From Prorocentrum cordatum (taxonomy: Eukaryota), in NCBI GenBank assembly GCA_963575745.1, contig CAUYUJ010000316.1, positions 1 to 64,000 on the forward strand: DNA of 64,000 bases, given 5' to 3'. Within the stretch, counting starts at the first letter, position 1, and each line of letters begins with the position of its first letter. The position numbers and the translations under genes are program-made. Positions 11,119-30,749 of this stretch are shown in pieces. The notes beneath the pieces are model-generated. The model was given only the letters and a program-made list of their open reading frames with translations. It made no database searches and was not told the DNA's origin.

Positions 11119-11140
11119 CTTGAGCCAAAATGGCTACGGA
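11119..11140 (-). other. Intact dinoflagellate spliced leader (DinoSL) at LINE 5' end
   Basis: Minus strand reads TCCGTAGCCATTTTGGCTCAAG, a 22/22 match to DCCGTAGCCATTTTGGCTCAAG. Confidence 0.97.
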
Positions 11141-14265: not shown

Positions 14266-14287
14266 TCCGTATCCATTTTGGCTCAAG
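14266..14287 (+). other. DinoSL relic at the 5' end of the second LINE
   Basis: TCCGTATCCATTTTGGCTCAAG, 21/22 match, just after a (CCT)n tract. Confidence 0.93.
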
Positions 14288-16742
14288 TGCGTAGTGTTTC
14301 CCTCAGGACTTGCCAATCTGGCGTGGGGGGATTGCGGCCCCCGACAGCTCACGCGTCTCCCAAGTGGCCTGCCCTGGCCTGGAAGCGCAGCTTATTTCTG
14401 ATATCTTAACTCCCGCTCTCGTGCCTTGCGCTCACTGTACACGTTGCCTGCGGGCGGATGCCACAGCCTGATGCTCCTAAGAAGCCTGCCTGCGGGCGGA
14501 TGACACAGCCTGATTCTCCAAAGAAGCCGAGTAGACACTCCCAGCGGCGTCGTGCGGCAGCGGTGGATTTGTGCTGGAAGTGGTGCAAGCACCCCGTGTC
14601 GGGTGCGCCGTGGTGGAATCGAGCAGATGCAGTCAGTTGCAGGAAGTGTGGAATTGCCAAGGCGCCGTCGTCAGCTCATGTTCGGCCCGAGCCCTCGGCA
14701 CCTGCCAAGCATGGGCCAGGCGCGCCTGGGGGGGCAAGTGACCCAGGCGTGGCGCCATGGCACGGGGATCGGGTCCGAGAGTTGGCGAAGCAGCTGGCTC
14801 AAACCAAGGGTCAGCTTGCCAACAAGGGAGTGTAGGATACGACGATGGAGGCCGGCGCGGGCGAGGCCGACGCGTTACCCCCGCGGCCGTCCAGCACCCA
14901 GGTGCGTGCCAGATTGGAGGAGATCGACGGCTCGCTCAGGGCCATCGTCAATTTTAAGGACTCGTGCTTCGTGCAGGCGCGGGGGGAGTTGGGGAGCGAG
15001 CGGCGTAAGATTCGCGGGGAGCTGGAGGCGGCCAAGCCCGTGCCAGCACAGTTGCGATCGCTGTCGATCCAGGCTCACAAGCTCCAGCTGAAGAAAAGTA
15101 AGCACGAGGATCTGTTGGCCAACGCCAAGGCAGACATGGGGAAGGCCAAGGAGGCCATCCGTGTCCAAAAGGAGCTGGTGGCAGAAACGGAGAAGGCCAT
15201 ATTGCAGATCGCTGAGGAGCAGACGCGTCTGGCGGCCGCCGTGCCGCGGCCTCCGCCTGCGCGGGCTGAGGCGGACGAGGTCGCGGCGGCGCTGGACATG
15301 TCCGTCAGCAAGCTGGGCGACCTCCTGGCGGGCCTCGGCGACGACGGCACCCTCTCGTCGAAGCTCGGCGGCGCGCTCGAGGAGGCGCGAGCCCTGGAGG
15401 AGCGCAAGAAGGCCGCCGAGCGGGAGGCCGCCCGTGCTGCCGCCGAGCAACGAGAAGCCGCTGCTGCTGGTGGCGCAGGTGGAGGCCGGCGTGCCGCCGC
15501 GGCCGCTGGTGCAGATGGAGGTCCCAGGGATGGGCCTTGCGTCGACACTCCCTGTCCTCATGATGGTGGCCTTGATGAGCTACGGGACTGCCTTGGCAGG
15601 GTTGGCATCGAGGTTGAGGCCGAACGCCGCAGAGGAGGAGGCGCGCGGTGAGATGCGCACGCAGCAGGGCGGAGTCACGGGATGGCAATCTGAGAAGCGG
15701 GCTGAGCTGGAGCAGGAAAGCTGTGCGCCTCTCCTTGTGGATCGGCCTGGTGACGAATGCAGCTACAGGCATGCCCAGTGCGGGCGCAGTGGCTGGTTCG
15801 CTGGATGCTGACTCGTTGCTCAATACTCAAAGTGTGCCTGTTGCTGCGACTGGCGCGGTGAACGCTGGCGGTGGCCGATGCGGGCCCAAGGGCAAGGCCG
15901 AGGGCCGCGGGCGCGGGTGGACGAGACGAGCCGCGGACGCGCGGAAGGGTCGATGCCTCGCCCCTGCCCGAAACTCCTGCTCGCGCCGTCGACGGACGTG
16001 CTGCGGCCCCGAGCGGAAGGATCTCTGCGGCCCTCGCCTGCCCTCGGCCCGCCACGGCAGGCGGCGTGGCTCTGGCGGCGTCTTCGACTGCTTCGACATC
16101 TTCGAGCGGACGGCTGACTGGAGCGGTTCCCTCGTCCGCGTGTTTTTTTCGCATGCGGTTTCGGAAGACGTGCCGGGGCACCCTGCTGAATCGCCAGCAG
16201 TGGACAATACCTTCGGCGAGCATAAGAAGGGCAGCATTGTCACGCTCAACGTTCGACGGGGAAGCAGATGGGGGGGGAATTCCTCGTCGGATGCCCCCAC
16301 GCCGTAGTTATGCTGCAGGAGCACCACATCTCAGCTAACCTCTTGGCCGACGCTCAGGCACGGGTGACCGACATGAACTGGCAGGGCTTGTGGTCAGCAG
16401 CGAAGGAGACTGGCAGTGCCAGCGGGGCGCAGTCAGGCCTGGCCATTCTGGCAAGGCCGACGGTCTTGGTCACTCGTGCCCCGTTCATGACGAGTGACTC
16501 CCTGGCAGATGGTCGCGCGCTCCCAGCTCAAGTGCACTGGGGAGTGCCAGGCGGCGTCGTGCTCATCTCGGTCTACGCGTGCGTGAACGAGGGCTGGTCG
16601 GACAACGTTTACGTGATGCAAGAGGCGAGCAGCCACGTGGAGCGCCTCAACTACGCGGCGTACGACTGGATTGTGGCAGGCGACTTCAACATGCAGCCGT
16701 CCGAGATGGGTGACCTGCCCTGGCTGCACGGCTTGGGCGGCA
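14266..16742 (+). mobile_element. 5' part of a second LINE (ORF1 plus partial endonuclease), 3'-truncated
   Basis: Zn-finger-like WCKHPVSGAPWWNRADAVSCRKCG. Coiled-coil ORF 14845-15651 after a stop at 14833-14835. EEP motifs MLQEHH, GLAIL, LISVYA, WIVAGDFNM. Ends abruptly in (CCT)n. Confidence 0.85.
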
Positions 16743-16745
16743 TAC

Positions 16746-19035
16746 TCCTCCTCCTCCTCCTCCTCCTCCTCCTCCTCCTCCTCCTCCTCCTCCTCCTCCT
16801 CCTGGTCCTACCCCTCCTCCTCCTCCTCCTCCTTCTCCTCCTCATCCTCTTTCTCCTCCGCCCCCCCTCCTCCCATTCCCCCTCTCCTCCCCCTCCTCCC
16901 GCTCCTCCTCCTCATCCTCCTCCCCCTCCCCCTCATCTTCCACCTCCTCTTTCCCTCCTCCTCCTCCTCCTCCTCCTCTTCCTCCTCCCCTTCCTCCCAG
17001 TCCTCCGCCTCCTCCTGCCCCTCCCCTCCTCTTCCTCCTCCTCCTCCCTCCTTTTCCTCCTCCTCCTCCTCCTCCCTCCTCCTCCTCCTCCTCCTCCTCC
17101 TCCCCCTCCTCCTCCTCCGCTGCCCCTCCTCCGCCTCTTCCGCCTCCTCTCCCTCCTCCCCCGCCTTGTCTTCCTTCTCGACTTCCTCCTCCTCCTCCTC
17201 CTCCTCCTCTCCTCCTCCTCCTCCTCCTCCTCCTTCTTCCCTCTTCCTCCTCCCCCTCCTCCTCCTCATCCTCCTCCCCCTCCTCCTCCTCCTCCTCGTC
17301 CTCCTCCGCCTCCCCCTCCACCTCCTCCTCCTCTTCTTATTATTATTCTTCTGATTCTTACTCATCTACGTTTTCTTCTGGTTAATAGTATTAGTATTAA
17401 TCGTCGTAGTCTTCTTCGTCTTCTTATTATTCGTAGTGTTTTCTTCGTAGTCTCAGTATTCGTATTTTTCTTCTTAGTATTATTATTCGTCTTCTTAGTA
17501 AAATCCTTCATAACCTTATTCTTCCTATTATTATTATTCCTCCTCCTCCTCCTCCTCCTCCTCCTCCTCCTCCTCCTCCTCCGCCTCCCCCTCTTCCCTC
17601 CTCCTCCCCCTCCTCCTCCTCCTCCTGCTCCGCCTCCTCCTCCTCCTCCTCCTCCTCCTCCTTCTCCTCACCTTCCCCCTCCCCTTCCTCCTCACCGTCC
17701 CCCCTCCCCTTCTCCTCCTCCTCCTCCTCCTCCTCCCCTTCTCCTCCTCCTCCTCCTCCTCCTCCTCCTCCTCCTCCTCCTCCTCCTCCTCCTCCTCCTC
17801 CCTCATCCTCCTCCTCCTCCTCCCCCCCATCCTTCCCTTCTCTTCCTCTCCCCTTCCTCCTCCTCCTCCTCCTCCTCCTCCTCCTCCTCCTCCTCCTCCT
17901 CCTCCACCATCACCAGCACGACCACCACCACCATCACAACCACCACCAGCACCAGCACCAGCACCAGCACGAGCACCAGCACCAGCACGAGCACCAGCAC
18001 CAGCACCAGCACCACCACAACCACGCACACACGCACGCACGCACGCACGCACGTGCACCACCACCCACTACGCACGCGCGCGCGGAGCCACAGGTCCGCT
18101 ACGACACGCGTCCGCGGATAGAGAAAATCAGCGCCATGGTAAGGGATGGGAGGGAGGGGTAGGACGTCAGATATGACGCGAGCGCACCTAGCTTGTCCTC
18201 CTCCTCCTCCTCCTCCTCATCCTCCTCCTCCTCCTCCTCCTCCCCATCCTTCCCCTCCTCTTCCTCCTCCCCTTCCTCCCATTCCTCGTCCTACTCCTCT
18301 CCTCCTCCTCCTCCTCCTCCTCTCCTCCTCCTCCTCCTCCTCCTTACCCTCCTGTTCCTCATTCCTCCTCCCTCCTCCTCCTCCTCCTCCTCCTCCTCCT
18401 CCTCCTCCTCCTCTCCGCCTCCGCCTCCTCCTCCTCCTCCTCCTCCTCCTCAGCCTCCCCCTCTTCCTCCTTTTCCTCCTCCTCCTCTCCCCCCCCTCCA
18501 TCCTCTTCCTCCTCCTCCTCCTCCTCCTCCTACTCCTCCTCCTCCTCCTTCCTCCTCCTCCTCCTCCTCCTCCTCCTCCTCCTCACTCCTCCTCCTCCTC
18601 ACCTCCTCCTCCTCCTCCTCCTCCTCCTCCTCCTCCCTCTCCTCCCTCTCGCCTCCCCCTCATTCATTCACCCTCCTCCCTGCTCCTTCTCCTCCTTTTC
18701 CTTTTCCTCCTCCTCCTCCTATCCCCCCCTCCTTCCTCCCTCCTCCTCCTCCTCCTCCTCCTCCTCCTGTCCGCCTCTTCCTCCTCGTCTTCCTCCTCCT
18801 CCTCCTCCTCCTTCTCCGCCTCCTCCTCCTCCTCCTCCTCCTCCTCCTCCTCCTTCCTCCCCTTCCTCCTCCTCCTCCTCCTCCTCCTCCTCCTCCTCCT
18901 CCTCCTTCTCCTCACATTCCCCCTCCCCTTCCTCCTTTTCCTCCTTTTCCTCCTCCTCCTCCTCGCTCTCCTGCTGTTGCTGCTCCTTATTTTCCTCCTC
19001 GACTCCTTCTCCCCCCTCCTCATCCTACGCCTCCT
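16746..19035 (+). repeat. Long polypyrimidine (CCT)n-derived tract with an embedded ACAA...TTGT-family 3' end (about 17930-18196)
   Basis: Directly visible. 18015-18196 is nearly identical to 560-739. Confidence 0.9.
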
Positions 19036-20149
19036 CCGTTTTTGGCTTGAAAAACACGGGTCCTGTGGGAACCGGGGCCCTTTCCCAATACGCAGTTCTC
19101 CCGCGTAGTGTTTGTTACGCTCCCGGGGTTCGCGGAAGGCCCCGGGAATTCACGGCCCGTTCCCCTCTGGACCCGCCTGTTTCATCACGGCGCGTCGTCG
19201 AAGCCGTCGCCCCCGTCGTCGCCGCTGCCGACCCGCCCTCCCTGTACCCGCCCCGCCCGGGACGGCTCCTTCCACTCCACGCGCCCCAACACCTGCTCGT
19301 GGTCCACTTCAAACACGAAGGCCTGGGCCAGCGCCGGGCGAGGCAAGGACGACGAGGGCGACGAGGACGGCGACGTGGACGGTCACCGAAGGGCAAGTTC
19401 GACAACGACGACGACCAGGAACTAGGGCAAGATCGGCAAGGGCTACAACCACGGCGGCGACAATGACAAGGCCGAAGGCGGCCAGAACGTGGACGACGAG
19501 GAAGAGGACGACGACGACGACGACGTCGACGAAGCCGACCAAAAAGAATTGTTGCTGTGTTTCGCGGTAGCGGCCGGTATTACCGTCCCCGGCCCCACCC
19601 TGGCGGCGTGACGATTCGTGCTGGCGCCTCCAGCGCAGGAGCATGGTTTTCTCGGCCCATCCCTCAACGCTGTTGCTCCTTATCCTCCGCACTCCCCCCG
19701 CCCCGCCCTGCACTCGCGCTGCCCGAACTCCGCCGCATGCGAACATGCACCCTCGCTGCGCGGGTCCGAGTGAAAGCGCGGCGTGCCGCGGGGTCGCGGC
19801 CTTCCCACTGCACCACCTCCACCAGAACGGCTCGCCCCTCTGAGGAGGCACCGCCAGACGGCGGCAAGAATCGGAAGACTTCGCGTTTCACCCAGTATCA
19901 CGAAATTCCGCTCCACGAGCTCCGTCGACACCCTTTGCCCCTGCGCGCAGGTCTCGCCTGACAGCGGCAGCCAACGGAACGCCCAGCTACATATCCCACG
20001 CCACCAGTCCCACCAGTTCCGCGCTCACCTCCAGGGCAAGCGCGCGAAGAAACAATAGTCCGACAACCGAAACAAACACAACTTCCCACTACTGAGCTAT
20101 ATAGCGCTCGTCTCCCGAACCAACACCGTACCCGGAAACAATCAGGCTA

Positions 20150-21000: not shown

Positions 21001-21488
21001 GAACTCATGAAGCTAAGTGTTAAATGTGTAAAACGTGTTCTACAAGTGTTTCAAACATGCTTATGAGGGCGATCGTTTTCACGCAGACGCTTCTATATCA
21101 TGCGGTGTGCAGCCAGACGAGATAACGTCATCTCACGAACGCTTTGCAACGGCAGAGCCTCTGAAAGCTTCTCCAGAGACCCCAGACAAGGTCAGGGACA
21201 GCAGGGTTGGGCAAAGAGAGTCACATAAAATTGGGAGGGAAAACTTTGAGCAAAAATGGGCCGCGGTCGCTTCCCACTCTCGCAGTTTCCACCCGCCCTC
21301 ATTCCAGTCAAAGACAGTGCCATGAGGGCGATCGTTTTCACGCAGACGCTTCTATATCATGCGGTGTGCAGCCAGACGAGATAACGTCATCTCACGAACG
21401 CTTTGCAACGGCAGAGCCTCTGAAAGCTTCTCCAGAGACCCAAGACCACTTTGTGCCCCGGGCCCATGAATGCCCTGGGATCCTTAGA

Positions 21489-24400
21489 TCACGACAAGTT
21501 TGAAAGCAGTCCCTGACCAGACCGAGCGAGATGACATGAGTGAAAAACCTCGGCAAGCTTTTTACAAAGGCGGGGGGGGTAGGGCTGTGCAATTAAGGTC
21601 CAGGATTTCCCATTCGGGGCTTTGCCAGAGAGCTCGAGGTGGGGGCGACCAGACCGAGAGCACACCCCCCGCCCTTTACACTTAAAAGAGTCCAGAGTCC
21701 TACACACGCCGTCAGGTATATTACACAGCATGAGTCTAGTTGCTTTTCTCCATCGGGTACCGAATTGGCAAAAATCTACTCGTTCCAATTTGACTTGCGG
21801 ACAGGCGAGAAACCTTAGAACCTCAGGAAGGATCCAGAACATCGAGGTGAGAGGGTTCTCGACGATGCACGGGACCTTCATTCTCAGGCAGAGGCGTACC
21901 AGTTTTATCGTGAACCTGGTCAGCAAGTTACCGATACGCACCTTCTCCATGTCCACGGCACTGAGCTCCGCCAGGCCCCAGGGAAACTCGTTGGATCGGA
22001 GCGGCGGTGGGCGCCCACGACGTGCCCGGCTCAGTGTGTGACAGGGAGTTGCGATCATCACACCTTTTATCTTGCCAGTCCGGACTCGATTCAAAAGTCT
22101 TTGTTGATTTCGATTCTTTGTTAGATCGTGATCTGGGCCATGCACGACATCGGTCACTGTAGCACGGCCTCCAAGTTTAGTCACTTCCGCTGCGACACCT
22201 CCGCAGCCGGAGTAGACGTCCTCAAAAGCCCACTGCGCGGCAGCGACGGTACGGCGGGCGGGGCGAGGCCGTTCAGCATCACGTCCTGCAGGTTGGCCTC
22301 GCACCACAGGGCGAACTGCTGGAAGCTTTTGGGCAGCCGCTGCCACTGTGCCTGCGCACGGCCGCCCTTCTCGTAGCGGGCGACGCTTTTGTGGCTGCCC
22401 CAGCGGCCACGCTTCATGATCTCGTCCAGCGTGCGTCGCAGCTGCAGACGATCCCACGACGCGCCGCTGTGGCGGAGCTGGTAAGGGACCAGCTCTGGGA
22501 GCCCCAGCCGCTTCGCAGCCGCCTTGAACTGCTTCAGGTATGCGGCGTAGCTGTAGTTGAAGACGGGCTCGTCGCCGTTCTTGCCGCGCACCAGCTCGCG
22601 CAGCAGCTGCGTGGTCCACGCCTCCTCTTTGTCCCAGATGACGGTGTCGTCGTAGATCCCCACCTTGGTCGGCCTCAGCTCCTCGGACGGCCGGATGACG
22701 AACGCCCAGTGGGGACCCACGTTCGACGACGGGGGGATGAGCCACTTCGCCTTCAGCTCGTGAATCTCCCCAGGCCGCGCGTAGGTCACAAGCGCGGCCA
22801 GCGTCTCGATGGCCATCGTGCGGAAGCCCGCCCGCACCAGCTCCACCATCAGGGCCGCCCACACCGGTCGCGCCTCGGGGAGCCGCGACTGCCCAGGAGC
22901 CAGGCGGTCCCAGCCCTGGAGGGCACGGTGGGCGCGGGGAAGCCGAAGGGTCCCAGCTCGCCCGAACTCCGGGCGGAGGCCCTTGATGGCCGCCAGCAGG
23001 TAGTGCCCTACGCTCCCGTCCATGCCGTTGAAGAACTTCTCGTCGAACACCTCGATCAGGGCGAAATCGACCTCCTCCGTGGAGTCGAGCGAGAGACCGA
23101 GCCTGGCGCAGTCCTGCACGAACCCCTCCATCACCTCCACGTACTGCTGGTCGACCTTCTCCCCCACGGCCTTCGTCTCCAGGAACGAGCGGCCGAGGGC
23201 GTCGGCCTCCACCGAGAAGCGGTCCTGCCTCACCAGCGCCGTACTCAGCCTCCTCAGCTTCGCCGGCTGCGAGATCGGCACGCTCCTCGGCAGACGCGGG
23301 ATCTCCCTCCGCGGTCGAGCCGACGGAATAGCCGACGCCTTCTGTGCAGCACTGCGCCCGTTGCTCAACAGGCGCCGATCCTCTCGCCGAACCGGCGGCG
23401 GCCGGGTCAGCCCCTGCAACCGCATCGGGCTTCGGCCGCTTGTGCCCGGGCTCGTACCGCCGCGATGGACCGTCGGCGGGATTGAGCTCAGACGGCACCC
23501 AACGAACATGGCAACGGATGTTGAGGGCCAGGGAAAGGGCGCACCACCTTCGACAGCAGATGTTCATCTGGAAATCCGAGGCCCTCCCCTTGCAGAACGC
23601 CAAGATCTGGCCCATGTTATCCCCCAAGAAGACGACATGACGACCACCGATACCAGGGCGCTTTGCGAGCCGACGAAGGGCCCAGATCATCCCCTTCGCC
23701 TCCAGAATGTGAATGGCTTCCCTACGGCAGAACCTTCCAGCGTATACAAACTTCCAGGGGGCCTCGTGGATCCAGTCGGGGCTGATGTCGGGGAACTTGG
23801 GGTCCTCCTCCCAGTACTCGTTCGGGTCATTCGTCCCCTTAGGGACGTACACGGTGAACTTGTCCTCCAGGGCATCTCGAGAACCTGCAAGAGCGTGTGC
23901 ACGATGAGCCATATCTTGACGGACCCGAAAACGCATACGCTCGTCGACCCTCCCAACCTGCTTCACATTTTTGTCACTCCAAGAGCTCTCGACAACTCCC
24001 CATCCTGTAGGGCAGGCGTCCGTCGCCACCACCTCGCCATGCCAGGGCAATCTCCACTGAGCAAAGGCAAAGGGTAACAGGGCTCGCGCTGCACTAAGCT
24101 CGGCCCGCACAGAGGGCCAGAGGTCGACCTGCTCTCCACCAGCGCTGCGAATGACCTGGTAGGTCGCAGACAAAACCGACAACAGGGGGCGACGGAGCAT
24201 GAAAATGAACGTCAGGTGGCCAACGGTTGACTCCAGCTGGTGCCCCGAGGCAACTCCACGGTCCAGCAGCCAAGTCAGCAGGCTGTCGACTTTCCACATC
24301 CTCTTGAGCGACGTGGACACCATGCCCTTGCCGCCATCGATTGCCACGCCCAGCACTTCCGACTGAGTCTGGGCCTCGACGCGCTCGTGAGTGGACAGCC

Positions 24401-25568
24401 CCACGTCGTCCAATCGCTCGCAAGCACAATCCTTCATCGTCTGCACCTCCTCAGGCTGACCACCAAGGAACCCCACGTTGTCCACGTAGACATAGTGGAG
24501 AGGCTGCCCACCTGAGGTAATCAGGCGCGAGCCGCCAAACGTCTGCAGGCGCCGATCGGCGGTCGCGCCCGTGGCATCCTCCACCTGCTTGGTGACCGCC
24601 TCCTGCACGAGGTAGAGTGACCACTTGAACCCCATGGGGAGCACCGCGAAGCAGGGGTGCACCCAGCGGTCTGGCGACAGCCACTCCCCCTCAGCCTCGT
24701 GGAGGTGGAGCTCCTCCGCTCGAAGCGGCGGAAGCCCGAAGTAGCGGCTGAGCTCCACATCGATCTTGAAGCGGTAGAACGCGTCCCGCACGTCGCCTGT
24801 GCTGATGAACACCTCCGTGTCGTCGTCGACCTCGATGAGCCCTAGCGACTCGGCGGTGGCCAGCTCCACTCCGGGGGGGTCGCGAAAGCGGCGATTGCTG
24901 CGGCGAGCGTCGACCACTAGCCGCTGCATCCCCGACTTCTTCTTCACGCAGAACACGGTGGCGCGCTCCTTGACAGCGGTGCACCACCGCAACACACCAA
25001 TTGACTCCAGCCGACGGACAAACTTGATGTAGGCCTGTCGATCCCCCGACAAGTTTCGGTCCATGTAGGGTGTGACCGGCTCCGAGTTGTCCTCCAGCTC
25101 CCAAAATTCGATGTCAGGCCTGACCATACGTTCTTCAAAATCTACCAGCATTGATGCAGCCTCAGCTGGCACCACATCGACCGCGTAGGGACAGTCCTTG
25201 CACGACGCGGGTACCGACAACAGCTCTTCCTGGTAGTCGCTCACAATGTGCTCATCCGAGTCGTACCCGGCTCGGGAACGCAGAAGCGCGCGTGCGGCTT
25301 CATGCGGACGAGGTACAGCATCAACAGCCTGAGAGCGCTCCATCACGCCCTTGATGTGCTGGACGGCCTCGGCCTGCGCCGGCGAGCATATCCCCTCGGG
25401 GGCCGCCCCACCGCACCCGCTCAGCCAGTTCAGGGTTGAAATGGCATCATTGGCACGACGAGTGATGGCCTGACGACGAGCGACTCGCTGACACACGCCT
25501 CGGCTGAGACCAGGACGGCGAGGCCCCTCCTCTGCCAGCGGCGGCAAAGGGAAGACCTCAGGCTGCAT
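21489..25568 (-). CDS. pol: RT-RNase H, continuing in frame to a C-terminal C5 cytosine methyltransferase domain (about 21489-22240)
   Basis: Likely ATG at 25568 (MQPEVFPLP). RT: QRLVVDAR, DVRDAFY, VLPMGFKWS, YVDN. RNase H: VATDAC, IHILEA, FLGDN, NPADGPSR. MTase: EDVYSGCGG, ATPCHTLSRAR, ENP, DFCQFGTRWRKAT. Confidence 0.9.
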   Translation of the reverse strand: MQPEVFPLPPLAEEGPRRPGLSRGVCQRVARRQAITRRANDAISTLNWLSGCGGAAPEGICSPAQAEAVQHIKGVMERSQAVDAVPRPHEAARALLRSRAGYDSDEHIVSDYQEELLSVPASCKDCPYAVDVVPAEAASMLVDFEERMVRPDIEFWELEDNSEPVTPYMDRNLSGDRQAYIKFVRRLESIGVLRWCTAVKERATVFCVKKKSGMQRLVVDARRSNRRFRDPPGVELATAESLGLIEVDDDTEVFISTGDVRDAFYRFKIDVELSRYFGLPPLRAEELHLHEAEGEWLSPDRWVHPCFAVLPMGFKWSLYLVQEAVTKQVEDATGATADRRLQTFGGSRLITSGGQPLHYVYVDNVGFLGGQPEEVQTMKDCACERLDDVGLSTHERVEAQTQSEVLGVAIDGGKGMVSTSLKRMWKVDSLLTWLLDRGVASGHQLESTVGHLTFIFMLRRPLLSVLSATYQVIRSAGGEQVDLWPSVRAELSAARALLPFAFAQWRLPWHGEVVATDACPTGWGVVESSWSDKNVKQVGRVDERMRFRVRQDMAHRAHALAGSRDALEDKFTVYVPKGTNDPNEYWEEDPKFPDISPDWIHEAPWKFVYAGRFCRREAIHILEAKGMIWALRRLAKRPGIGGRHVVFLGDNMGQILAFCKGRASDFQMNICCRRWCALSLALNIRCHVRWVPSELNPADGPSRRYEPGHKRPKPDAVAGADPAAAGSARGSAPVEQRAQCCTEGVGYSVGSTAEGDPASAEERADLAAGEAEEAEYGAGEAGPLLGGGRRPRPLVPGDEGRGGEGRPAVRGGDGGVRAGLRQARSLARLHGGGRFRPDRGVRREVLQRHGRERRALPAGGHQGPPPGVRASWDPSASPRPPCPPGLGPPGSWAVAAPRGATGVGGPDGGAGAGGLPHDGHRDAGRACDLRAAWGDSRAEGEVAHPPVVERGSPLGVRHPAVRGAEADQGGDLRRHRHLGQRGGVDHAAAARAGARQERRRARLQLQLRRIPEAVQGGCEAAGAPRAGPLPAPPQRRVVGSSAAATHAGRDHEAWPLGQPQKRRPLREGRPCAGTVAAAAQKLPAVRPVVRGQPAGRDAERPRPARRTVAAAQWAFEDVYSGCGGVAAEVTKLGGRATVTDVVHGPDHDLTKNRNQQRLLNRVRTGKIKGVMIATPCHTLSRARRGRPPPLRSNEFPWGLAELSAVDMEKVRIGNLLTRFTIKLVRLCLRMKVPCIVENPLTSMFWILPEVLRFLACPQVKLERVDFCQFGTRWRKATRLMLCNIPDGVCRTLDSFKCKGRGVCSRSGRPHLELSGKAPNGKSWTLIAQPYPPRLCKKLAEVFHSCHLARSGQGLLSNLS
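22181..23509 (-). CDS. Tyrosine recombinase, overlapping pol in another frame
   Basis: Catalytic set YARPGE (R), PTKVG (K), YQLRHSGAS, RGRW, RYEKGG (Y). Confidence 0.93.
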   Translation of the reverse strand: MFVGCRLSSIPPTVHRGGTSPGTSGRSPMRLQGLTRPPPVRREDRRLLSNGRSAAQKASAIPSARPRREIPRLPRSVPISQPAKLRRLSTALVRQDRFSVEADALGRSFLETKAVGEKVDQQYVEVMEGFVQDCARLGLSLDSTEEVDFALIEVFDEKFFNGMDGSVGHYLLAAIKGLRPEFGRAGTLRLPRAHRALQGWDRLAPGQSRLPEARPVWAALMVELVRAGFRTMAIETLAALVTYARPGEIHELKAKWLIPPSSNVGPHWAFVIRPSEELRPTKVGIYDDTVIWDKEEAWTTQLLRELVRGKNGDEPVFNYSYAAYLKQFKAAAKRLGLPELVPYQLRHSGASWDRLQLRRTLDEIMKRGRWGSHKSVARYEKGGRAQAQWQRLPKSFQQFALWCEANLQDVMLNGLAPPAVPSLPRSGLLRTSTPAAEVSQRK

Positions 25569-25698
25569 CTTGAAAAAGAAGGTGAAGCTCAAGTAGGCGC
25601 CGAACGCGAGCCTGAGCTGAAACGCTGCGCCCGAAAGCGCTGCCCCTCTGAGGTAGAAGCGACTAGCAGCGGGGTCCCTGCCAGTCGCCGTCGCACAG

Positions 25699-27195
25699 CT
25701 AAGCGTCTGCCGCGCCTCCAGCCCCCTTCTTGGCGGCTGCCTTTGCCTTCGGGTTGGCGGTGGCTGCACGCACTTCTTGGGCCTTCTGGCGCTGCTTCTC
25801 AATCTCGGCTTTCTCTTTGGCACGGGTGGCCACGTGAGCGGTGAGGGCTGGGGCGATCCCCGCCGTCCGCTGCTGATGGCCTGACCACAGTTCCTCATCC
25901 TCAAAGCGCCCCTCTCCTGGACCACGACTGGCCGCGTCCAACAGCAGCTGCATCCTCCTCGCCAGCACCTCGAACGCGGCCAGCGACGCGAGGTTGAGCT
26001 GATCGTAGCACCCGGCGTGCTCCAGCAGGCGGCACATCGCCTGGAGCTCGTACGCGAGGCGGTCCGAAGCGGCGATGCGGTTCTCGACGAGATACTTGTG
26101 ATACCACTGCATCGGGGAGCCTCCAGTCCTCTCAATGTTCTTCGCCATCCACAGCATGGTGCGCGGGCCCTCGACGGGCCAGTCCTCATAGAAGCTCTCG
26201 TGCATCTTGGCGACGGCATCCTTCCACGAGCGGAACCTCTCGCCCTGCTCGTCGTACTGCACGGACAGGGTCCTGGCGTCGTCAAGGTCCAGCTCAGGCG
26301 GCGCGCTCGCAGGGCCAGGCAGAGGAGGCACAGGTGCCGCAGGCCCGTCGCGGGCCATGAGCGCGGCAATGTCCTTCCAGCGCCTGGCCCCAAAGCCAGG
26401 CACGTCGTCCACGTGGAGGCGGTAGAGCACCACGACGTCCTCGGCGGTCCGACCCGCGGCAGGGGTCGCGGCGACGCTCACCAGCATCCGATCCCCCAGC
26501 CTGCGAGCGTCCTTCTCGGCAAGGATCGTCGCGACGGTGAACTCGGTGCCGAGAGGGAACGAGGAGCTCGGCTCGCCAACGACCCAGCGGTAGTCCTTCT
26601 CGTCCTCCACGATGGCGGTCGCCTCGGCGGCGACAGCCTCCTCTCGGGGTGGAGAGGTCTGGGTGCCCCCCTTGTCGTCGTCCTCGTCCTCGGGCGCATC
26701 CAGCACAATCGGTGGCGCCTTACCCCGCCCGCGGCGGGCAGGAGCACCTCCCAGCCGCCAGAAGTCCTCCAGCGCCAGCACGCGCCCGTCCCACTGCTGC
26801 GTGTGGAGCGGCGCGGGCAGTGGCACCTCGCCAGCGGCGAGCGCCTGGCGCGCCAAGTGCCGAGCCTCGATCACCTTCTCGCGGAGCTCCCGGGCGCCGA
26901 TCTCACGTCGGAACCGGTACCTCGGCGAGGCCACGTGCCGAGGAACCCCGCCACCAGGTGCCAGCACGATGAACTCCTCGATGTCAGGGCCTGACAGACA
27001 TTCAGGCATCTGGTCGCCGTCAGGGGACTCCGTGATCCACTCCTCGAAGCTCACCGGCCACAGGCACACGCGCTCGTGCAGGAGGTCCTCCCCGGCGTCC
27101 ATGTAGCGCACCAGGATCCTACTGCCCGGCATCAGCCCTCTCAATGACGCCGCCACCCCGGAGGGCAGGGCGCCTGATCCTGCTGCCACCAGCAT
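25699..27195 (-). CDS. gag-like ORF of the YR retrotransposon
   Basis: About 500 aa, protein-like (HERVCLWP, WPVEGPR, YDQLNLASLAAFE), in the gag position upstream of pol. First ATG at 27195. Confidence 0.75.
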   Translation of the reverse strand: MLVAAGSGALPSGVAASLRGLMPGSRILVRYMDAGEDLLHERVCLWPVSFEEWITESPDGDQMPECLSGPDIEEFIVLAPGGGVPRHVASPRYRFRREIGARELREKVIEARHLARQALAAGEVPLPAPLHTQQWDGRVLALEDFWRLGGAPARRGRGKAPPIVLDAPEDEDDDKGGTQTSPPREEAVAAEATAIVEDEKDYRWVVGEPSSSFPLGTEFTVATILAEKDARRLGDRMLVSVAATPAAGRTAEDVVVLYRLHVDDVPGFGARRWKDIAALMARDGPAAPVPPLPGPASAPPELDLDDARTLSVQYDEQGERFRSWKDAVAKMHESFYEDWPVEGPRTMLWMAKNIERTGGSPMQWYHKYLVENRIAASDRLAYELQAMCRLLEHAGCYDQLNLASLAAFEVLARRMQLLLDAASRGPGEGRFEDEELWSGHQQRTAGIAPALTAHVATRAKEKAEIEKQRQKAQEVRAATANPKAKAAAKKGAGGAADA

Positions 27196-27526
27196 CCTGA
27201 CGGGCTCCGCGTCGCGCGCCGGCACAGAAGCCGCCGACCGCCGCCACCACCACGTTGAACACGACGGCCGCGATGAGCAGCGCCCACGGCGGCCCCTCCG
27301 GGCAGCTCAGCGTCGGGCACGCCGGGCAGACCGCCTCCGGACACGTCACCTCCGGGCAGGTCAGGTTGGGACAGGCAGGGCCGGGCGGACAGGGCGGTGG
27401 GAGCGGGCAGGGCTCTGACTGACCGCCGGTCGAGGTCCAACTGGCCACCACGCCGGCCACCGCACCGCGGCCTATCTCCCGCGCCCCCGACTGGAGGAGG
27501 TCGCTCAGATAGTCTGGGAGCACCAT
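27119..27526 (-). CDS. Small Cys/Pro-repeat membrane protein (ORF0 of the YR element)
   Basis: ATG about 20 bp inside repeat A1. Repeated CP(x3)CP units followed by hydrophobic WALLIAAVVFNVVVAAVGGFCAG and a basic tail. Confidence 0.6.
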   Translation of the reverse strand: MVLPDYLSDLLQSGAREIGRGAVAGVVASWTSTGGQSEPCPLPPPCPPGPACPNLTCPEVTCPEAVCPACPTLSCPEGPPWALLIAAVVFNVVVAAVGGFCAGARRGARQDAGGSRIRRPALRGGGVIERADAGQ

Positions 27527-29110
27527 CCAAGGTGCGACGCCTCAAAAACTTTGAGCAAAAATGGGCCGCGGTCGCTTCCCACTCTCGCAGTTTCCACCCG
27601 CCCTCATTCCAGTCAAAGACAGTGCCATACAGGTTAAAACATGTTCAACACATTTTTAGACATCTGGAAATGATTTGGCAGCATGCTTCCTCTCCATACA
27701 TCGACTTCCACAAGCGCCAAGCCCGGATGGACACGAGCAGGGACAAGAGCAGGTGCACGCCCCGAGGGGCGGCCCTCGCAGAGCTCGGCGGGGGCGCTGG
27801 AGCGCAGCAACTCACAGGTCGTAACACGTGATTGCTTCACGACCCAGAATCACGGCCCTCGTGCCAGGCACCGCCGAGGACGCGGCTTCCCCCACCTCCT
27901 CCTCCTCCTCCTCCTCCTCCTCCTCGTCCTGCTCCTCCTCCTCCTCCTCCTCCTCCTCCTCCTCCTCCTCCTCCTCCTCCTCCTCCACCTCCTCCTGCTC
28001 CGACCCAGGATCTGCAGCATTGGCTCCGCTGGGTGCCAGCCACCATCTAGCAGCGTGGCCACCACCGCTCGAAGAGGCCCTCTAACCCCAGTCAACCTGC
28101 GGACGCCGAGCTCGAGGATGCGTGATCGGATCTTCCGCCAAGCTTGAACAACCCTGCCGTGCATGTCCGGGGGGCCTCTGCCACGATGGGAGGATGAGGC
28201 GGAGGAGGAAGAGGAGGAGGAGGAGAAGGAGGGGGAGGGGGAGGAGCAGGGAGAGGCGTGGGGGGGAGGGGGGGGGAGGAGGACGGGGCGAGGGGGAGGA
28301 AGGGGATGGGGAAGGAGGAGGAGGGCGAGGAGGAGGAGGAGGAGGAGGAGGAAGAGGAGGAGGCAGGAGAGGAGGAGGAGGAGGAAAACGGGGACGAGAG
28401 GGGAGGAGGAGCGGAAAAGGAGGAGGCAGGGGAGGGGGAAGAGGAGGAAGAGGGGCAGGGACGATCTCCCCCCCCCCCCCAGCGTCGGCCGCCGGGGTGC
28501 CACGCCTGGTCCCGCACCTGCCTGTGCAGCGATGCCCAGTAGTCCACGGACTGCGGGTCCAGCAGGTTCGAGGCCTGGGCACGTGTTTTCTTTTGTTGCG
28601 GGCCACCACGGGGTGGTGGGGGATCCCTCCGTCCTTGATCCCTCCTCCTGCTCCTCCTCCCCCTCCTCCTCCTCTTCTCCTCCTTTTCCCCCCTCCTGCG
28701 CCCTCCTCCTCCCCCCTCCTCCCCCCTCCTCCTCCCTCCTCGCCCTCCCTCCTGCTCCCCACTCTCTTCCCACCCTCCTCCACTCGGGGGGAGGGGGGGC
28801 AAGCATCGGAGCTCGAGGCTCCAGGCCCGTGAGCGTTGCTCCTTGCTCACCCTTCCTGGGGGGGGGGCCCTCGGGAGATTCCCTCGTCGTCAGCGTCGCA
28901 GCGCGCGAGAGGTGCGTCTTGAAAGGCCGCGGTCCCCGCGAGGAGGAGGAGGCGGAGGAAGACGTGCCATCCTCCTCCCCCTCCGCCTCCTCCGCCTCCT
29001 CCCCCTCCGCCCCCTCCTCCTCCTCCTCCTCCGCCTCCTCCTCCTCCGCCTCCTCCGCTCCCTCCTCCTCCTCCTCCTCCTCCTCCTCCTCCTCCTCCTC
29101 CTCCTCCTCC

Positions 29111-29656
29111 ACAATTACTCAATATGAATACTCCTCTCCCTCTTCCCCTGATGACGGCTTGAAAGTGTCCGACCCCCCCCGCGTATTGATTTTTTACACA
29201 GGTTTCCCCGGAAATGGGTTTTCGCCTGCATTTGTTTCCAAAATGCTGCTCTCGCTGAGGCGCCGGCCTCATTTTCGGGCCCCGCTCGTTCCGAATCGTG
29301 CTCCCGCTGCAGCGCTGGCCTCATTTCCGTGCTTCCGCCCGTGCCGGATCGTGCTCCCGCTGCAGCGCTGGCCTCATTTCCACGCTTCCGCTCGTTTCGA
29401 CTCGTGCTCTCGCTGCAGCGCTGGCGTCATTTCCCGTGCCATGCCACGGCGTGCAATGCAATGCTAGGTTGATACTACGCTTTGCGGTGCTCTTCTACGC
29501 CATGCCATGCCGTGCTCTACAATGCATCGCGTACCCTTTCGGGATCAGTGCCCTGCTCGACATCCAACAGTGCGAGTAGAGAAGGGATCTACGCCATGGT
29601 AAGGGATGGGAGGGAGGGGTAGGATGTCAGATATGACGCGAGCGCACCTAGCTTGT
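29111..29656 (+). mobile_element. Complete 546-bp non-autonomous element ACAATTACTCAATAT...CACCTAGCTTGT within (CCT)n
   Basis: Sharp borders against CCT tracts, homology to 1-739, and three internal tandem units (TCGTGCTCCCGCTGCAGCGCTGGCCTCATTTCC). Confidence 0.75.
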
Positions 29657-30749
29657 CCCACCCCCTCCTCCTCATCCCCTTCCTCCTCCTCCTCCTCCTC
29701 CTCCTCCTCCTCCTCCTCCTCCTCCCCCTCCTCCTCCCCCTCCTCCTGCCCCTATAGATCTCCGCCCCTCCTTTCTCCTTCATCCTCCCTCCTCCGACAT
29801 CATCATCTTTCCCCCTCCTGCTCGTCGCTGTCCTCACCCCTTTCTCCATCATGCTCCCGGCCCCTGCCATTCTCCTCATCCCGCCTCACCCTCCTATGCC
29901 CCACTCCTCCTCATTCCTCTGCCAACGCAGCTTGAACGTCCGTGGCGCGTTTGCTCGCTTGCTTGCTTGCTTTCTCGACCACTCTTTATCCCCCGTGGCC
30001 TTCATATTTCATCTCATCATCCATCCGCCATCCTCTATGATGCCTCCTCCCTCCTCCTCCTCCTCCTCCTCCTCCTCCTCCTCCTCCTCCTCCTCCTCCT
30101 CCTCCTCCTGCCCCTCCTCCCGCTCCTCCTCCTCCTCCTGCCCCTCCTCCTCCTCCTCCTCCTCCTCCTGCACCCCCTGCACCCTCCTCATCCTCCCCTC
30201 GTCGCCTCCAATCTCGGTTCGTCCTCCTCTTCTCCCTTTCTCTCATCCCTTCCCCTCCTCGGCATGCTCCATCATCTACCTTTGTCTTGTCATGGTCCCG
30301 ACCCCCGACACTGGTTGTCAGACATGATGTTCAACCTGGCTCAGTCTCTCTCTCCCTCTTCATGCTCCCTCCTCGTCCTCCCCTTTCCCCCCCTCCTACC
30401 CTCGATTCCCCCTTCCTCCTCACTCCCTCCCTCCTCTCTTCCGAGCGCCCCCAGCGGGCGCGCTGGCGAGTGGGTGATGATGTGCAGTGGGTGATTCGAG
30501 TGGGTGGTGCAGATGGTCCTTTCTGGCGCGGTTGGTGTGCAATGGGTGATATTATGTGAGCCATTGCCCGATTGCTGGCACCGTGTGTGCGCATCTGGCG
30601 CGGTTGGTCTCCAGCAGGGCAGTTTCTGGTGCGGCTGGTCACCCGTACACGGAGCTCAAGCTTCTTCCCTGAGGCGTTTGAAGGATGAGACGCACTATTG
30701 GTGGCCGGCTGGGCCCTCCCTCACTCCCTTTCCAGAGGCCCCCCCAATG

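What the first reader, a model, noticed from the sequence alone, without database searches (positions are those of the whole stretch)
21489..23509. Retroelement methyltransferase reachable only through ~400 codons of dual-coding sequence
The MTase domain lies downstream of the YR gene but in the pol frame, which stays open across the whole YR ORF. There is no Met in that frame between RNase H and the MTase SAM-binding motif. It must be made as an RT-RH-linker-MTase polyprotein, by frameshifting from YR, or by cis/trans-splicing. A fusion could methylate cDNA as it is made. DNMT-bearing retrotransposons are known in Symbiodinium. Caveat: high GC3 in YR makes stops rare in this particular frame.
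Basis: partly seen in the sequence, partly recalled or inferred. Interest (0 to 1): 0.7.

Follow-up and report, generated by a model that had tools for sequence, protein, structure and literature searches.

The report
Recombinase gene nested inside retrotransposon polyprotein
A jumping gene of a dinoflagellate-type genome hides its whole recombinase gene inside a stop-free spacer of its polymerase gene, so that ribosomes can read on to a small, so far unannotated cytosine-methyltransferase-like domain at the end.

Summary
On the minus strand lies an intact tyrosine-recombinase (YR) retrotransposon, 27628..21063, with split direct repeats A1-B1-A2-B2. Its pol ORF (ATG 25568, stop 21489) reads RT, RNase H, a 412-codon linker and a C-terminal methyltransferase (MT) domain. 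The YR gene (ATG 23509, stop 22181) lies wholly inside the linker, in the +1 frame.

The open frame is not a GC3 artefact. Synonymous shuffles of the window's YR expect 7-8 pol-frame stops; none is seen. In 43 metagenomic relatives with intact YR there are 2 stops where 441 are expected, and 42 of 43 have none. The same offset in the relatives' RT, RH and MT gives 0.85-0.87 of expectation. YR codons avoid T at position 3 in 40 of 40 elements. The linker is not conserved as protein; YR is.

The MT domain has a C5-cytosine-methyltransferase fold (Z 12.6 to M.HhaI). It matches neither the Dam-like MT of DIRS elements nor, above threshold, Pfam's DNMT model.

Best reading: one RT-RH-linker-MT polyprotein. 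This is a new variant of the known DIRS "long ORF overlap" and of DNMT-bearing dinoflagellate DIRS elements. Translation and activity are untested.

The parts
27545..27628 (-). A1, the 5' split direct repeat (84 nt)
   Evidence: 100% identical to A2 at 21240-21323
25699..27195 (-). gag-like ORF (first Met at 27195, stop at 25699-25701)
   Evidence: Open frame. No Pfam match. The same protein is the N-terminal part of the named database protein P0179. 'gag' is assigned by position only.
21489..25568 (-). pol ORF: ATG 25568 to stop 21489-21491; RT - RNase H - linker - MT
   Evidence: The N-terminal (V/I)FPLP motif next to the Met is shared with full-length relatives.
24198..25568 (-). reverse transcriptase part of pol (P0001 aa 304-760); motif C reads YVDN at 24488
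   Evidence: RVT_1 is weak, E 0.011, below the cut-off. tblastn gives 26-36% identity to relatives. Some relatives carry a precomputed PF00078.
23463..24197 (-). RNase H part of pol (aa 761-1005), ending in the motif WVPSELNPADGPS
   Evidence: tblastn to relatives, E 1e-9 to 1e-42. Weak PF00336 match at aa 990-1010.
22227..23462 (-). pol-frame linker, 412 codons, stop-free, no Met, rich in A/G/R/P; overprinted on YR
   Evidence: The pol-frame translation finds a match in 1 of 80 relatives' loci, and that one is weak.
22181..23509 (-). tyrosine recombinase gene, +1 frame relative to pol (first ATG 23509, stop 22181-22183)
   Evidence: 16 of 36 family members match PF00589, best E 2.8e-6. Catalytic-type R/K/RH/W/Y columns are conserved. 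The AF2 model (pLDDT 89.5) matches Cre at E 4e-6.
21492..22226 (-). C5-cytosine-methyltransferase-like domain (aa 1418-1662): motif I 22226, PC 22052, ENP 21866, FCQxGxxWRK 21770, AQPYP 21590
   Evidence: AF2 pLDDT 93.7. All top Foldseek matches are C5-MTases. VIA Z 12.6 to M.HhaI. A profile against PDB finds C5-MTases at E about 0.02. No Pfam match for the window's copy.
21322..21446 (-). B1 repeat (125 nt)
   Evidence: 99.2% identical to B2
21240..21323 (-). A2 repeat (84 nt)
   Evidence: 100% identical to A1
21063..21187 (-). B2 repeat (125 nt), separated from A2 by a 52-nt spacer (21188-21239)

Best explanation
This is a young, intact retrotransposon of the DIRS order, with Ngaro/PAT-type split direct repeats.

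Its pol gene is translated from its own ATG as one long protein: RT, RNase H, a tether of about 410 residues, and a compact C5-cytosine-methyltransferase-like domain. The tether is the pol-frame reading of the DNA that encodes the tyrosine recombinase in the +1 frame. It is not selected as an amino-acid sequence. It is selected only to contain no stop, which is achieved mostly by avoiding T at the third position of YR codons.

The recombinase is made separately. Its first ATG sits in or next to the codons of the conserved C-terminal RNase H motif. How ribosomes reach that ATG is unknown.

Shown here: the architecture, the family-wide absence of stops, the codon signature, the folds of both domains, and the conservation of the catalytic-type Cys and Glu. 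Inferred: that the linker is really translated, that the MT is active, and that, being tethered to RT, it methylates the element's own cDNA. The last point is borrowed from the proposal made for SymbioDIRS-Dnmt3.
For: Window:
- 0 pol-frame stops over YR against 7.3-8.2 expected.
- No Met in the pol frame from aa 972 to 1473.

Relatives (80 metagenome loci):
- In the best-hit table, RT/RH and MT usually share a frame and YR sits at +1. By count, YR is at +1 to MT in all but 2 loci with a YR hit, and RH shares MT's frame in all but 7 with an RH hit.
- 34 of 41 relatives with RH and MT have an unbroken RH-to-MT frame.
- 42 of 43 with intact YR have zero pol-frame stops over YR. In total there are 2 against 440.9 expected, while the third frame has 655 against 566.
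- These 43 fall into 34 lineages at under 70% YR identity, and 33 of them are stop-free.
- The same offset in the non-overlapped RH, MT and RT of the same loci gives 512/602, 806/923 and 639/756.
- GC3 of YR exceeds that of RH in 40 of 40 elements. Mean T3 is 0.139 in YR, 0.293 in RH and 0.306 in MT.
- In 15 pairs at 56-74% YR identity, substitutions pile up at YR position 3. Pol-frame identity in the same columns is only 26-47%.
- Predicted proteins of 1365-1501 aa with RT-RH-linker-MT exist in the protein library.

MT domain:
- Cys of PC, Glu of ENP and 14 other columns are invariant in 41 sequences.
Against: - There is no direct evidence of translation. No RNA run could be listed, and no proteomic or ribosome data were available.
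- 30 of 34 elements have 1-5 Met codons somewhere in the linker, some 11-40 codons before motif I. Internal initiation is therefore possible in those copies.
- 7 of 41 relatives are broken or frame-shifted between RH and MT. In one of them (L029) a stop lies 13 nt after RH while the rest stays open.
- The 80 loci were chosen by their MT match, which favours intact copies.
- Synonymous shuffles overestimate stops somewhat (ratio 0.85-0.87 in controls; 0.61 in the window's RT-RH).
- RT motif C reads YVDN rather than YxDD, so the enzymology of this family is not textbook.
Confidence: 0.8

Rival explanations
1. MT is made as a YR-MT fusion. Ribosomes translating YR slip back one base (-1 frameshift) near the YR stop and continue in the pol frame.
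For: The pol frame is -1 relative to YR. The YR stop lies between 130 nt upstream and 43 nt downstream of MT motif I in 31 of 34 elements, so the geometry would allow it.
Against: This route needs only the last few codons of the overlap to be open, not all 400 or more. A canonical X XXY YYZ heptamer occurs in the last 200 nt of YR in only 7 of 59 elements, and 4 of those are near-identical copies. The window has none.
Confidence: 0.05
2. MT is translated from its own mRNA, made by cis-splicing from RH to MT or by spliced-leader trans-splicing just upstream of MT. The genomic read-through frame is not used.
For: Relict spliced-leader-like sequences occur in the window (the motif is recalled from memory), which fits a trans-splicing host. 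Some relatives have a Met 11-40 codons before motif I.
Against: The window, L017, L025 and L072 have no Met at all in the linker, and where Mets occur their positions vary. Neither kind of splicing explains the removal of about 440 expected stops along the whole overlap, nor the T3 depletion in YR. No spliced-leader-like sequence (up to 2 mismatches) was found in 331 kb of relatives' loci.
Confidence: 0.08
3. The open frame is a by-product of high GC3 in YR and has no function.
For: YR GC3 is 0.86-0.90 in the window. An antisense frame over YR is also long: 22181..23485 on the plus strand, 434 codons.
Against: Shuffles that keep the window's own codon usage still expect 7-8 stops. Relatives with GC3 of 0.54-0.65 expect 12-18 stops each and have none. 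GC3 is raised only in YR, in 40 of 40 elements.
Confidence: 0.01
4. The linker is kept open for a reason other than reaching MT, for example to keep ribosomes from terminating inside the element's RNA. On this view MT is a passenger.
For: Nothing direct. It cannot be excluded from sequence alone.
Against: MT itself is strongly conserved. It gives E 1e-35 to 1e-54 across the 80 loci, has 16 invariant columns including the catalytic-type Cys and Glu, and stays in frame with RH.
Confidence: 0.04

Closest known systems
DIRS1-like retrotransposons with 'long ORF overlap' (Dictyostelium DIRS-1; Piednoel et al. 2011, PMC3266345, passages read; Goodwin & Poulter 2001/2004 recalled, seen only as references)
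   Same: A YR retrotransposon with gag, a pol that reads RT-RH-MT, and a YR ORF that overlaps pol over hundreds of codons in another frame. A long overlap was reported in half of 28 annotated elements.
   Different: [quoted passage not shown] Here the whole YR, catalytic domain included, is nested between RH and MT. There the termini are inverted repeats plus an ICR; here they are split direct repeats. There MT is Dam-like (PF05869); here it has a C5-MTase fold and no PF05869 match.
SymbioDIRS-Dnmt3 of Symbiodinium (de Mendoza et al. 2018, PMC5890265; passages, section 6 read in full; figures and supplements not seen)
   Same: A dinoflagellate DIRS-order element with A-coding-B-A-B repeats. 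A C5-type methyltransferase shares the pol ORF with RT, and YR is in a separate ORF. cDNA self-methylation has been proposed for it.
   Different: Those DNMTs are Dnmt3-type and were found with PF00145. The window's MT has no Pfam match, and 7 of 41 family members reach PF00145 only at E 0.0088 or weaker. PF00145-bearing RT proteins in the library are only 24-34% identical in RT-RH over 14-71% of the query. The one inspected, P0225, has the order RT-DNMT-RH with YLDD. hhalign of the MT profile against P0225 aligns motif I only, probability 15%. That P0225 is a SymbioDIRS-Dnmt3 is my inference. The passages I read do not mention a pol/YR overlap.
PAT-like and Ngaro elements (Szitenberg 2014, PMC4157794; Ribeiro 2019, PMC6681497; passages only)
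   Same: Split direct repeats A1 ... B1-A2-B2; gag, RT/RH and YR. PAT-like elements also carry an MT.
   Different: [quoted passage not shown] I could not see the figures that give the domain order of PAT-like elements.
C5 cytosine methyltransferases (M.HhaI, DNMT1, DNMT3, DNMT5, Dnmt2)
   Same: The fold: Z 12.6 to M.HhaI over 207 aligned residues at rmsd 4.3, and Z 11-12 to DNMT1, DNMT5 and DNMT3A. Motif I FxGxGG-like, PC, ENx and a C-terminal xPYP helix are conserved. The motif names are recalled.
   Different: Only about 245 residues, with hardly any target-recognition domain. In its place is an invariant Cys/Cys/Cys/His set. It has ENP rather than ENV. Sequence similarity is below Pfam's threshold.

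Membership tests
DIRS order (tyrosine-recombinase retrotransposons) | Encodes a tyrosine recombinase instead of a DDE integrase | tested here: met
   16 of 36 family YRs match PF00589, best E 2.8e-6, although the window's own copy does not. Conserved R, K, R-H, W and Y columns. The AF2 model matches Cre, lambda Int and Xer at E 4e-6 to 1e-3. No integrase or protease family was found in pol.
DIRS order (tyrosine-recombinase retrotransposons) | RT and RNase H of the LTR-retrotransposon type in pol | tested here: inconclusive
   RVT_1 scores only E 0.011, 15.9 bits against a cut-off of 29.6. The RH region gives a weak PF00336 match. Homologues at 29-40% identity carry a precomputed PF00078. De Mendoza 2018 notes that Symbiodinium DIRS RTs align poorly to Pfam seeds. 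No phylogeny was made.
PAT-like / Ngaro-like structural group | Split direct repeats A1 - internal - B1 A2 B2 | tested here: met
   A1 27628..27545 equals A2 21323..21240 (100%). B1 21446..21322 equals B2 21187..21063 (99.2%).
DIRS1-like superfamily | Inverted terminal repeats plus an internal complementary region | tested here: not met
   Self-comparison of the element finds only the two direct repeat pairs. The 25 longest inverted repeats listed, of 199 found, all lie in low-complexity arrays at 27.9-29.1 kb, outside the element.
DIRS1-like / PAT-like 'MT' domain | MT domain of the Dam type (Pfam PF05869) | tested here: not met
   No PF05869 match for the window's domain at E up to 10, nor for any of 41 family members at E up to 1. 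The fold is that of C5-MTases.
SymbioDIRS-Dnmt3 | Dnmt3-type DNMT domain recognised by PF00145 within pol | tested here: not met
   The window's copy has no match. 7 of 41 relatives match only at E 0.0088 or weaker. hhalign against the PF00145-bearing P0225 gives probability 15%, motif I only. No DNMT phylogeny was made.
C5 cytosine methyltransferase superfamily | Class I MTase fold with motif I (SAM), the PC catalytic Cys and the ENx Glu | tested here: met
   pLDDT 93.7. The top 49 Foldseek rows are all C5-MTases, E 1.7e-5 to 5.7e-4. Z 12.6. C80, E141 and P143 are invariant; P79, F23 and G25 are conserved in at least 90% of sequences. The profile search of PDB finds them at E about 0.02-0.03.
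C5 cytosine methyltransferase superfamily | Methyl transfer to cytosine C5 in DNA (or RNA) | not testable with these tools
Substrate and activity are inferred.

The most novel reading that the evidence does not exclude
This is a very large and so far unannotated clade of dinoflagellate-type YR retrotransposons. It gives 5564 representative clusters at E<=1e-3.

The clade independently acquired a minimal C5-methyltransferase, with a Cys3His cluster in place of the target-recognition domain. It tethers that domain to RT through a spacer of 400-490 residues whose DNA is the recombinase gene read in another frame.

The spacer would be a rare case of a long translated overprint selected only for 'no stop'. 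The cost is paid by the codon usage of the overlapped gene (T3 halved). The tethered enzyme would mark nascent cDNA with 5mC.
Probability: 0.4. Interest if true: 0.65.

Novelty: new variant of a known kind. Interest (0 to 1): 0.55.

Why it matters
It gives a clean, quantified case of selection on a frame only to stay open. There are 2 stops where about 440 are expected, with a measurable cost in the codon usage of the overlapped recombinase gene. This makes the old "long ORF overlap" of DIRS elements directly testable.

It also suggests that methyltransferase-bearing retrotransposons are under-counted. This MT domain escapes Pfam, yet it has thousands of relatives, many at the end of RT proteins. 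If so, elements scored as "DIRS without DNMT" in dinoflagellate genomes may in fact carry one. That bears on how these heavily methylated genomes and their transposons interact.

Tried and rejected
- Own genome: none is held, so the other copies in the host genome could not be surveyed. The window holds only one copy.
- RNA evidence: no RNA holder was listed by the look-up of sequencing runs.
- Organism names: cluster look-ups gave no names for 10 relatives.
- PDB by sequence: the single MT sequence found nothing, and the YR profile found nothing at E<=1.
- NCBIfam on 41 MT members: only scattered single hits, with dcm at E 0.013 in one member.
- ESM Atlas: the nearest cluster is auto-named 'DNA (cytosine-5-)-methyltransferase family protein', score 0.98, with no common Pfam. 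This is a lead only.
- A -1 slippery heptamer at the YR end: not conserved.
- A spliced-leader relic as a family feature: the degenerate match inside the A repeats is not seen in the relatives.
- Literature: searches found no description of a YR gene nested between RH and a C5-type MT. The pairing of 'Prorocentrum cordatum' with 'DIRS' returned nothing. Figures and supplements were not seen, and Goodwin & Poulter's papers and Repbase are not in the library, so a prior description cannot be excluded.
Full report
**What is there**

The window is GC-rich, 0.46-0.75 per 2 kb. On its minus strand one search lists a stop-to-stop frame 26477..21489 (1662 codons). A second frame, 23563..22181 (460 codons), lies entirely inside it, and an upstream frame runs 27306..25699. 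translate them.

One search gives these positions:
- The gag-like ORF has its first Met at 27195 and its stop at 25699.
- Pol has a Met at 25568, next to a (V/I)FPLP motif that also sits at the N-terminus of full-length relatives.
- RT motif C is at 24488, and the RNase H C-terminal motif WVPSELNPAD at 23507.
- The first ATG of the nested frame is at 23509, and its stop at 22181.
- The methyltransferase motifs lie at 22226 (YSGCGG), 22052 (PC), 21866 (ENP), 21770 and 21590. Pol stops at 21489.

The nested frame is +1 relative to pol. The pol frame has no Met between residues 971 and 1474.

The element is bounded by split direct repeats. A1 27628..27545 equals A2 21323..21240 (100%). B1 21446..21322 equals B2 21187..21063 (99.2%). 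The order is A1-internal-B1-A2-(52 nt)-B2. The near-identity of the repeats suggests a recent insertion. Only one copy lies in the window, and no whole genome is held.

**Is the open frame more than chance?**

I shuffled synonymous codons of the nested gene, which keeps its protein and its codon usage.
- Window, pol frame: a mean of 8.2 stops is expected and 0 are seen; 1 of 5000 shuffles had none. From the ATG it is 7.28 expected against 0, and 0 of 3000 shuffles reached 0.
- Window controls, same test: gag 13 observed against 13.07; RT-RH 16 against 26.2; the third frame of YR 18 against 13.0.

So the shuffle can overestimate by up to about 1.6-fold, which does not explain zero.

**Relatives**

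A full HMMER scan with the C-terminal 303 residues found 5564 representative proteins at E<=1e-3 and 2156 at E<=1e-10. Many are 1350-1540 aa long with the match at the very C-terminus. The six I read are RT-RH, then about 400 residues of low-complexity sequence unlike one another, then MT.

A metagenome scan with the MT alignment returned 80 loci, the best of 143 confirmed. These were picked by their MT match, so they are biased towards intact copies. tblastn with the window's domains shows mostly the same layout: RT/RH in one frame, YR in the +1 frame, MT back in the RT/RH frame. By count, YR is at +1 to MT in all but 2 loci with a YR hit, and RH shares MT's frame in all but 7 with an RH hit. 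The window's linker, read in the pol frame, finds a match in only 1 of 80 loci, and that match is weak. The YR frame finds matches at 1e-6 to 1e-70.

Counts:
- Of 41 relatives that hold both the RH C-terminus and MT, 34 have one unbroken frame from RH to MT. Seven do not: six have RH and MT in different frames, and L029 has a stop 13 nt after RH.
- Of 21 loci with YR but without RH, 19 are open over the whole YR match. L033 is an edge artefact, open to the contig start. L064 has 2 stops.
- In the 43 relatives with an intact YR match of at least 250 residues, the pol frame over YR holds 2 stops in total against 440.9 expected. 42 of 43 have none, where 0.27 such loci are expected.
- The third frame of the same DNA holds 655 stops against 566 expected.
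- The 43 make 37 clusters at 90% YR identity and 34 at 70%. 33 of the 34 are stop-free.
- Like-for-like control, using the same offset in the non-overlapped domains of the same loci: RH 512/602.3 (0.85), MT 806/923.1 (0.87), RT 639/755.8 (0.85).

Relatives with YR GC3 of 0.54-0.65 expect 12-18 stops each and have none. GC richness is therefore not the cause.

**The codon signature**

- In all 40 elements with RH, YR and MT (39 relatives plus the window), GC3 of YR exceeds that of RH. The means are 0.70 and 0.525.
- T at YR codon position 3 is halved: 0.139 in YR against 0.293 in RH and 0.306 in MT.

A pol-frame codon over the overlap is made of YR position 3 followed by YR positions 1 and 2. 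A stop there must begin with T at YR position 3.

In 15 pairs of relatives at 56-74% YR identity, substitutions concentrate at YR position 3 (for example 81/53/147). Identity in the pol frame over the same columns is 26-47%. YR is the conserved protein, and the linker is conserved only in being open.

**The domains**

YR:
- 16 of 36 aligned members match PF00589, best E 2.8e-6. The window's copy does not.
- Invariant or near-invariant R, K, R-H, W and Y columns fit the recombinase catalytic set (the assignment to roles is from recall).
- The AF2 model (pLDDT 89.5) matches Cre at E 4e-6 with TM 0.50-0.58, then lambda Int and Xer.
- A profile search of PDB by sequence found nothing.

MT:
- No Pfam family matches the window's copy even at E 10. 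A single-sequence search of PDB also found nothing.
- 7 of 41 aligned members touch PF00145 at E 0.0088 or weaker, and none touches the Dam family PF05869.
- The profile finds 46 PDB sequences at E up to 10, and the top 38 are all C5 cytosine methyltransferases. The best is E 0.018. The alignments cover motif I to the PC motif.
- The AF2 model is confident (pLDDT 93.7, pTM 0.89).
- All listed Foldseek matches are C5-MTases, E 1.7e-5 to 5.7e-4.
- VIA-align gives Z 12.6 to M.HhaI (207 aligned residues, rmsd 4.3), 12.2 to DNMT1, 11.5 to DNMT5 and 11.4 to DNMT3A, spanning model residues 10-257.
- Sixteen columns are invariant in 41 sequences. They include the Cys of PC, the Glu and Pro of ENP, and a Cys/Cys/Cys/His set (C171, C201, C207, H214 of the domain) where a target-recognition domain would be. 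That this set binds zinc is my guess.
- The ESM Atlas's nearest cluster is auto-named a cytosine-5 methyltransferase family, without a Pfam family.

**How the genes sit together (33 relatives plus the window)**

- The first ATG of the YR frame lies within -46 to +59 nt of the end of the RH match in 32 of 34 elements. It is often at -10 or -19, inside the codons of the SELNxADxPSR motif.
- The YR stop lies between 130 nt upstream and 43 nt downstream of MT motif I in 31 of 34.
- The linker is 339-499 codons long. It holds no Met in 4 of 34 elements (the window, L017, L025, L072) and 1-5 Mets at varying places in the others.

The recombinase gene thus fills the RH-MT spacer almost exactly.

**Mechanism**

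Only translation straight through from RH to MT requires the entire overlap to be stop-free. A -1 slip from YR, a splice, or a separate start would each need at most its last part. Canonical -1 slippery heptamers occur near the YR end in 7 of 59 elements (4 of them near-identical copies) and not in the window.

I therefore put 0.8 on a single RT-RH-linker-MT polyprotein. The linker would be a long tether, presumably disordered, with A 17.7%, G 17.0%, R 15.0% and P 11.2% in the window.

Translation itself is not shown. No RNA run could be listed. A transcriptome-derived 'complete' ORF of 1368 aa (P0193) has RT-RH, a linker and a degenerate MT-like end. It shows only that such an unspliced RNA exists in some species.

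How YR is translated from an ATG 2 kb inside pol is open. A subgenomic or trans-spliced RNA, internal entry, or a +1 shift from pol are all possible. That the tethered MT methylates the element's own cDNA is borrowed from the proposal for SymbioDIRS-Dnmt3 and is untested.

**Comparison with what is known**

[quoted passage not shown] In them the catalytic YR domain lies in the non-overlapping 3' end (Piednoel 2011, passages). Ribeiro 2019 says the same in general terms.
- Their MT is Dam-like (Muszewska 2013; de Mendoza 2018; the 2026 preprint 10.64898/2026.05.21.726589).
- De Mendoza 2018 (section 6 read in full) describes Symbiodinium DIRS elements with A-coding-B-A-B repeats and a Dnmt3-type DNMT in pol, found with PF00145, besides 'DIRS elements lacking DNMTs'.
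- In the protein library, the closest named RT-RH relatives are unnamed products of Prorocentrum cordatum, up to 97% identity. PF00145-bearing RT proteins are far off, at 24-34% identity over 14-71% of the query.
- The one PF00145-bearing protein I read (P0225) has the order RT-DNMT-RH and a YLDD motif. hhalign of the MT profile against it aligns motif I only, probability 15%.

The element is therefore a new variant of two known things. It has the DIRS long ORF overlap, here as a complete nesting of YR in an RH-MT spacer. It is also a DNMT-bearing dinoflagellate DIRS element, here with a different, minimal and unannotated C5-type domain.

My searches found no description of this arrangement. 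I could not see figures, supplements, Repbase or the Goodwin & Poulter papers, so a prior description cannot be excluded.

**Verdict**

This is a new variant of a known kind, of moderate interest.

Noticed in passing
window 24477-24488 (-); relatives: RT motif C reads Y-V-D-N, not YxDD. 6 have YxDD: the five PF00145-bearing proteins and P0155. 37 matched neither pattern. An Asn in place of the second catalytic Asp is unusual for an active RT.
   Followed up: partly
window 11119-11134 (-), 14272-14287 (+), 27550-27565 (-), 21245-21260 (-): A 16-base dinoflagellate spliced-leader motif (recalled from memory) occurs once exactly and once with 1 mismatch elsewhere in the window. It also occurs with 3 mismatches inside repeats A1 and A2, on the element's sense strand. 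That makes 4 matches against 0.52 expected. No match with up to 2 mismatches was found in the 80 relatives' loci.
   Followed up: partly
window 25699-26477 (-): The pol frame is open for 909 nt upstream of its ATG and overlaps the last 259 or so codons of gag. A named database gene model, P0179 (97% identical), joins gag to pol through a predicted splice. Whether a gag-pol fusion is made is not known.
   Followed up: no
window 21492-22226 (-): The MT region has much lower GC3 (0.56-0.57) than gag (0.82), RT-RH (0.69-0.76) or YR (0.86-0.90) of the same element.
   Followed up: no
window 21639-21770 (-): Invariant Cys, Cys, Cys and His (domain positions 171, 201, 207, 214) sit where C5-MTases have their target-recognition domain. 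This may be a zinc site.
   Followed up: no
window 27800-29800 and 16000-20000, 36000-38000: Long (TCC)n/(GGA)n-like low-complexity arrays lie directly upstream of the element. Stretches with a GC skew of about -0.5 lie elsewhere.
   Followed up: no
L026:617-3040, L029:4746-4759: Variants among the relatives. L026 has a shorter RH-MT spacer (about 280 codons), no recognisable YR by tblastn, and decayed MT motifs. L029 has a stop 13 nt after RH, but the rest of the linker-MT frame is open.
   Followed up: partly
P0193: A transcriptome-derived 'complete' ORF of 1368 aa has RT-RH, a linker and a C-terminal region that looks like an MT domain without its glycine and Cys motifs.
   Followed up: no
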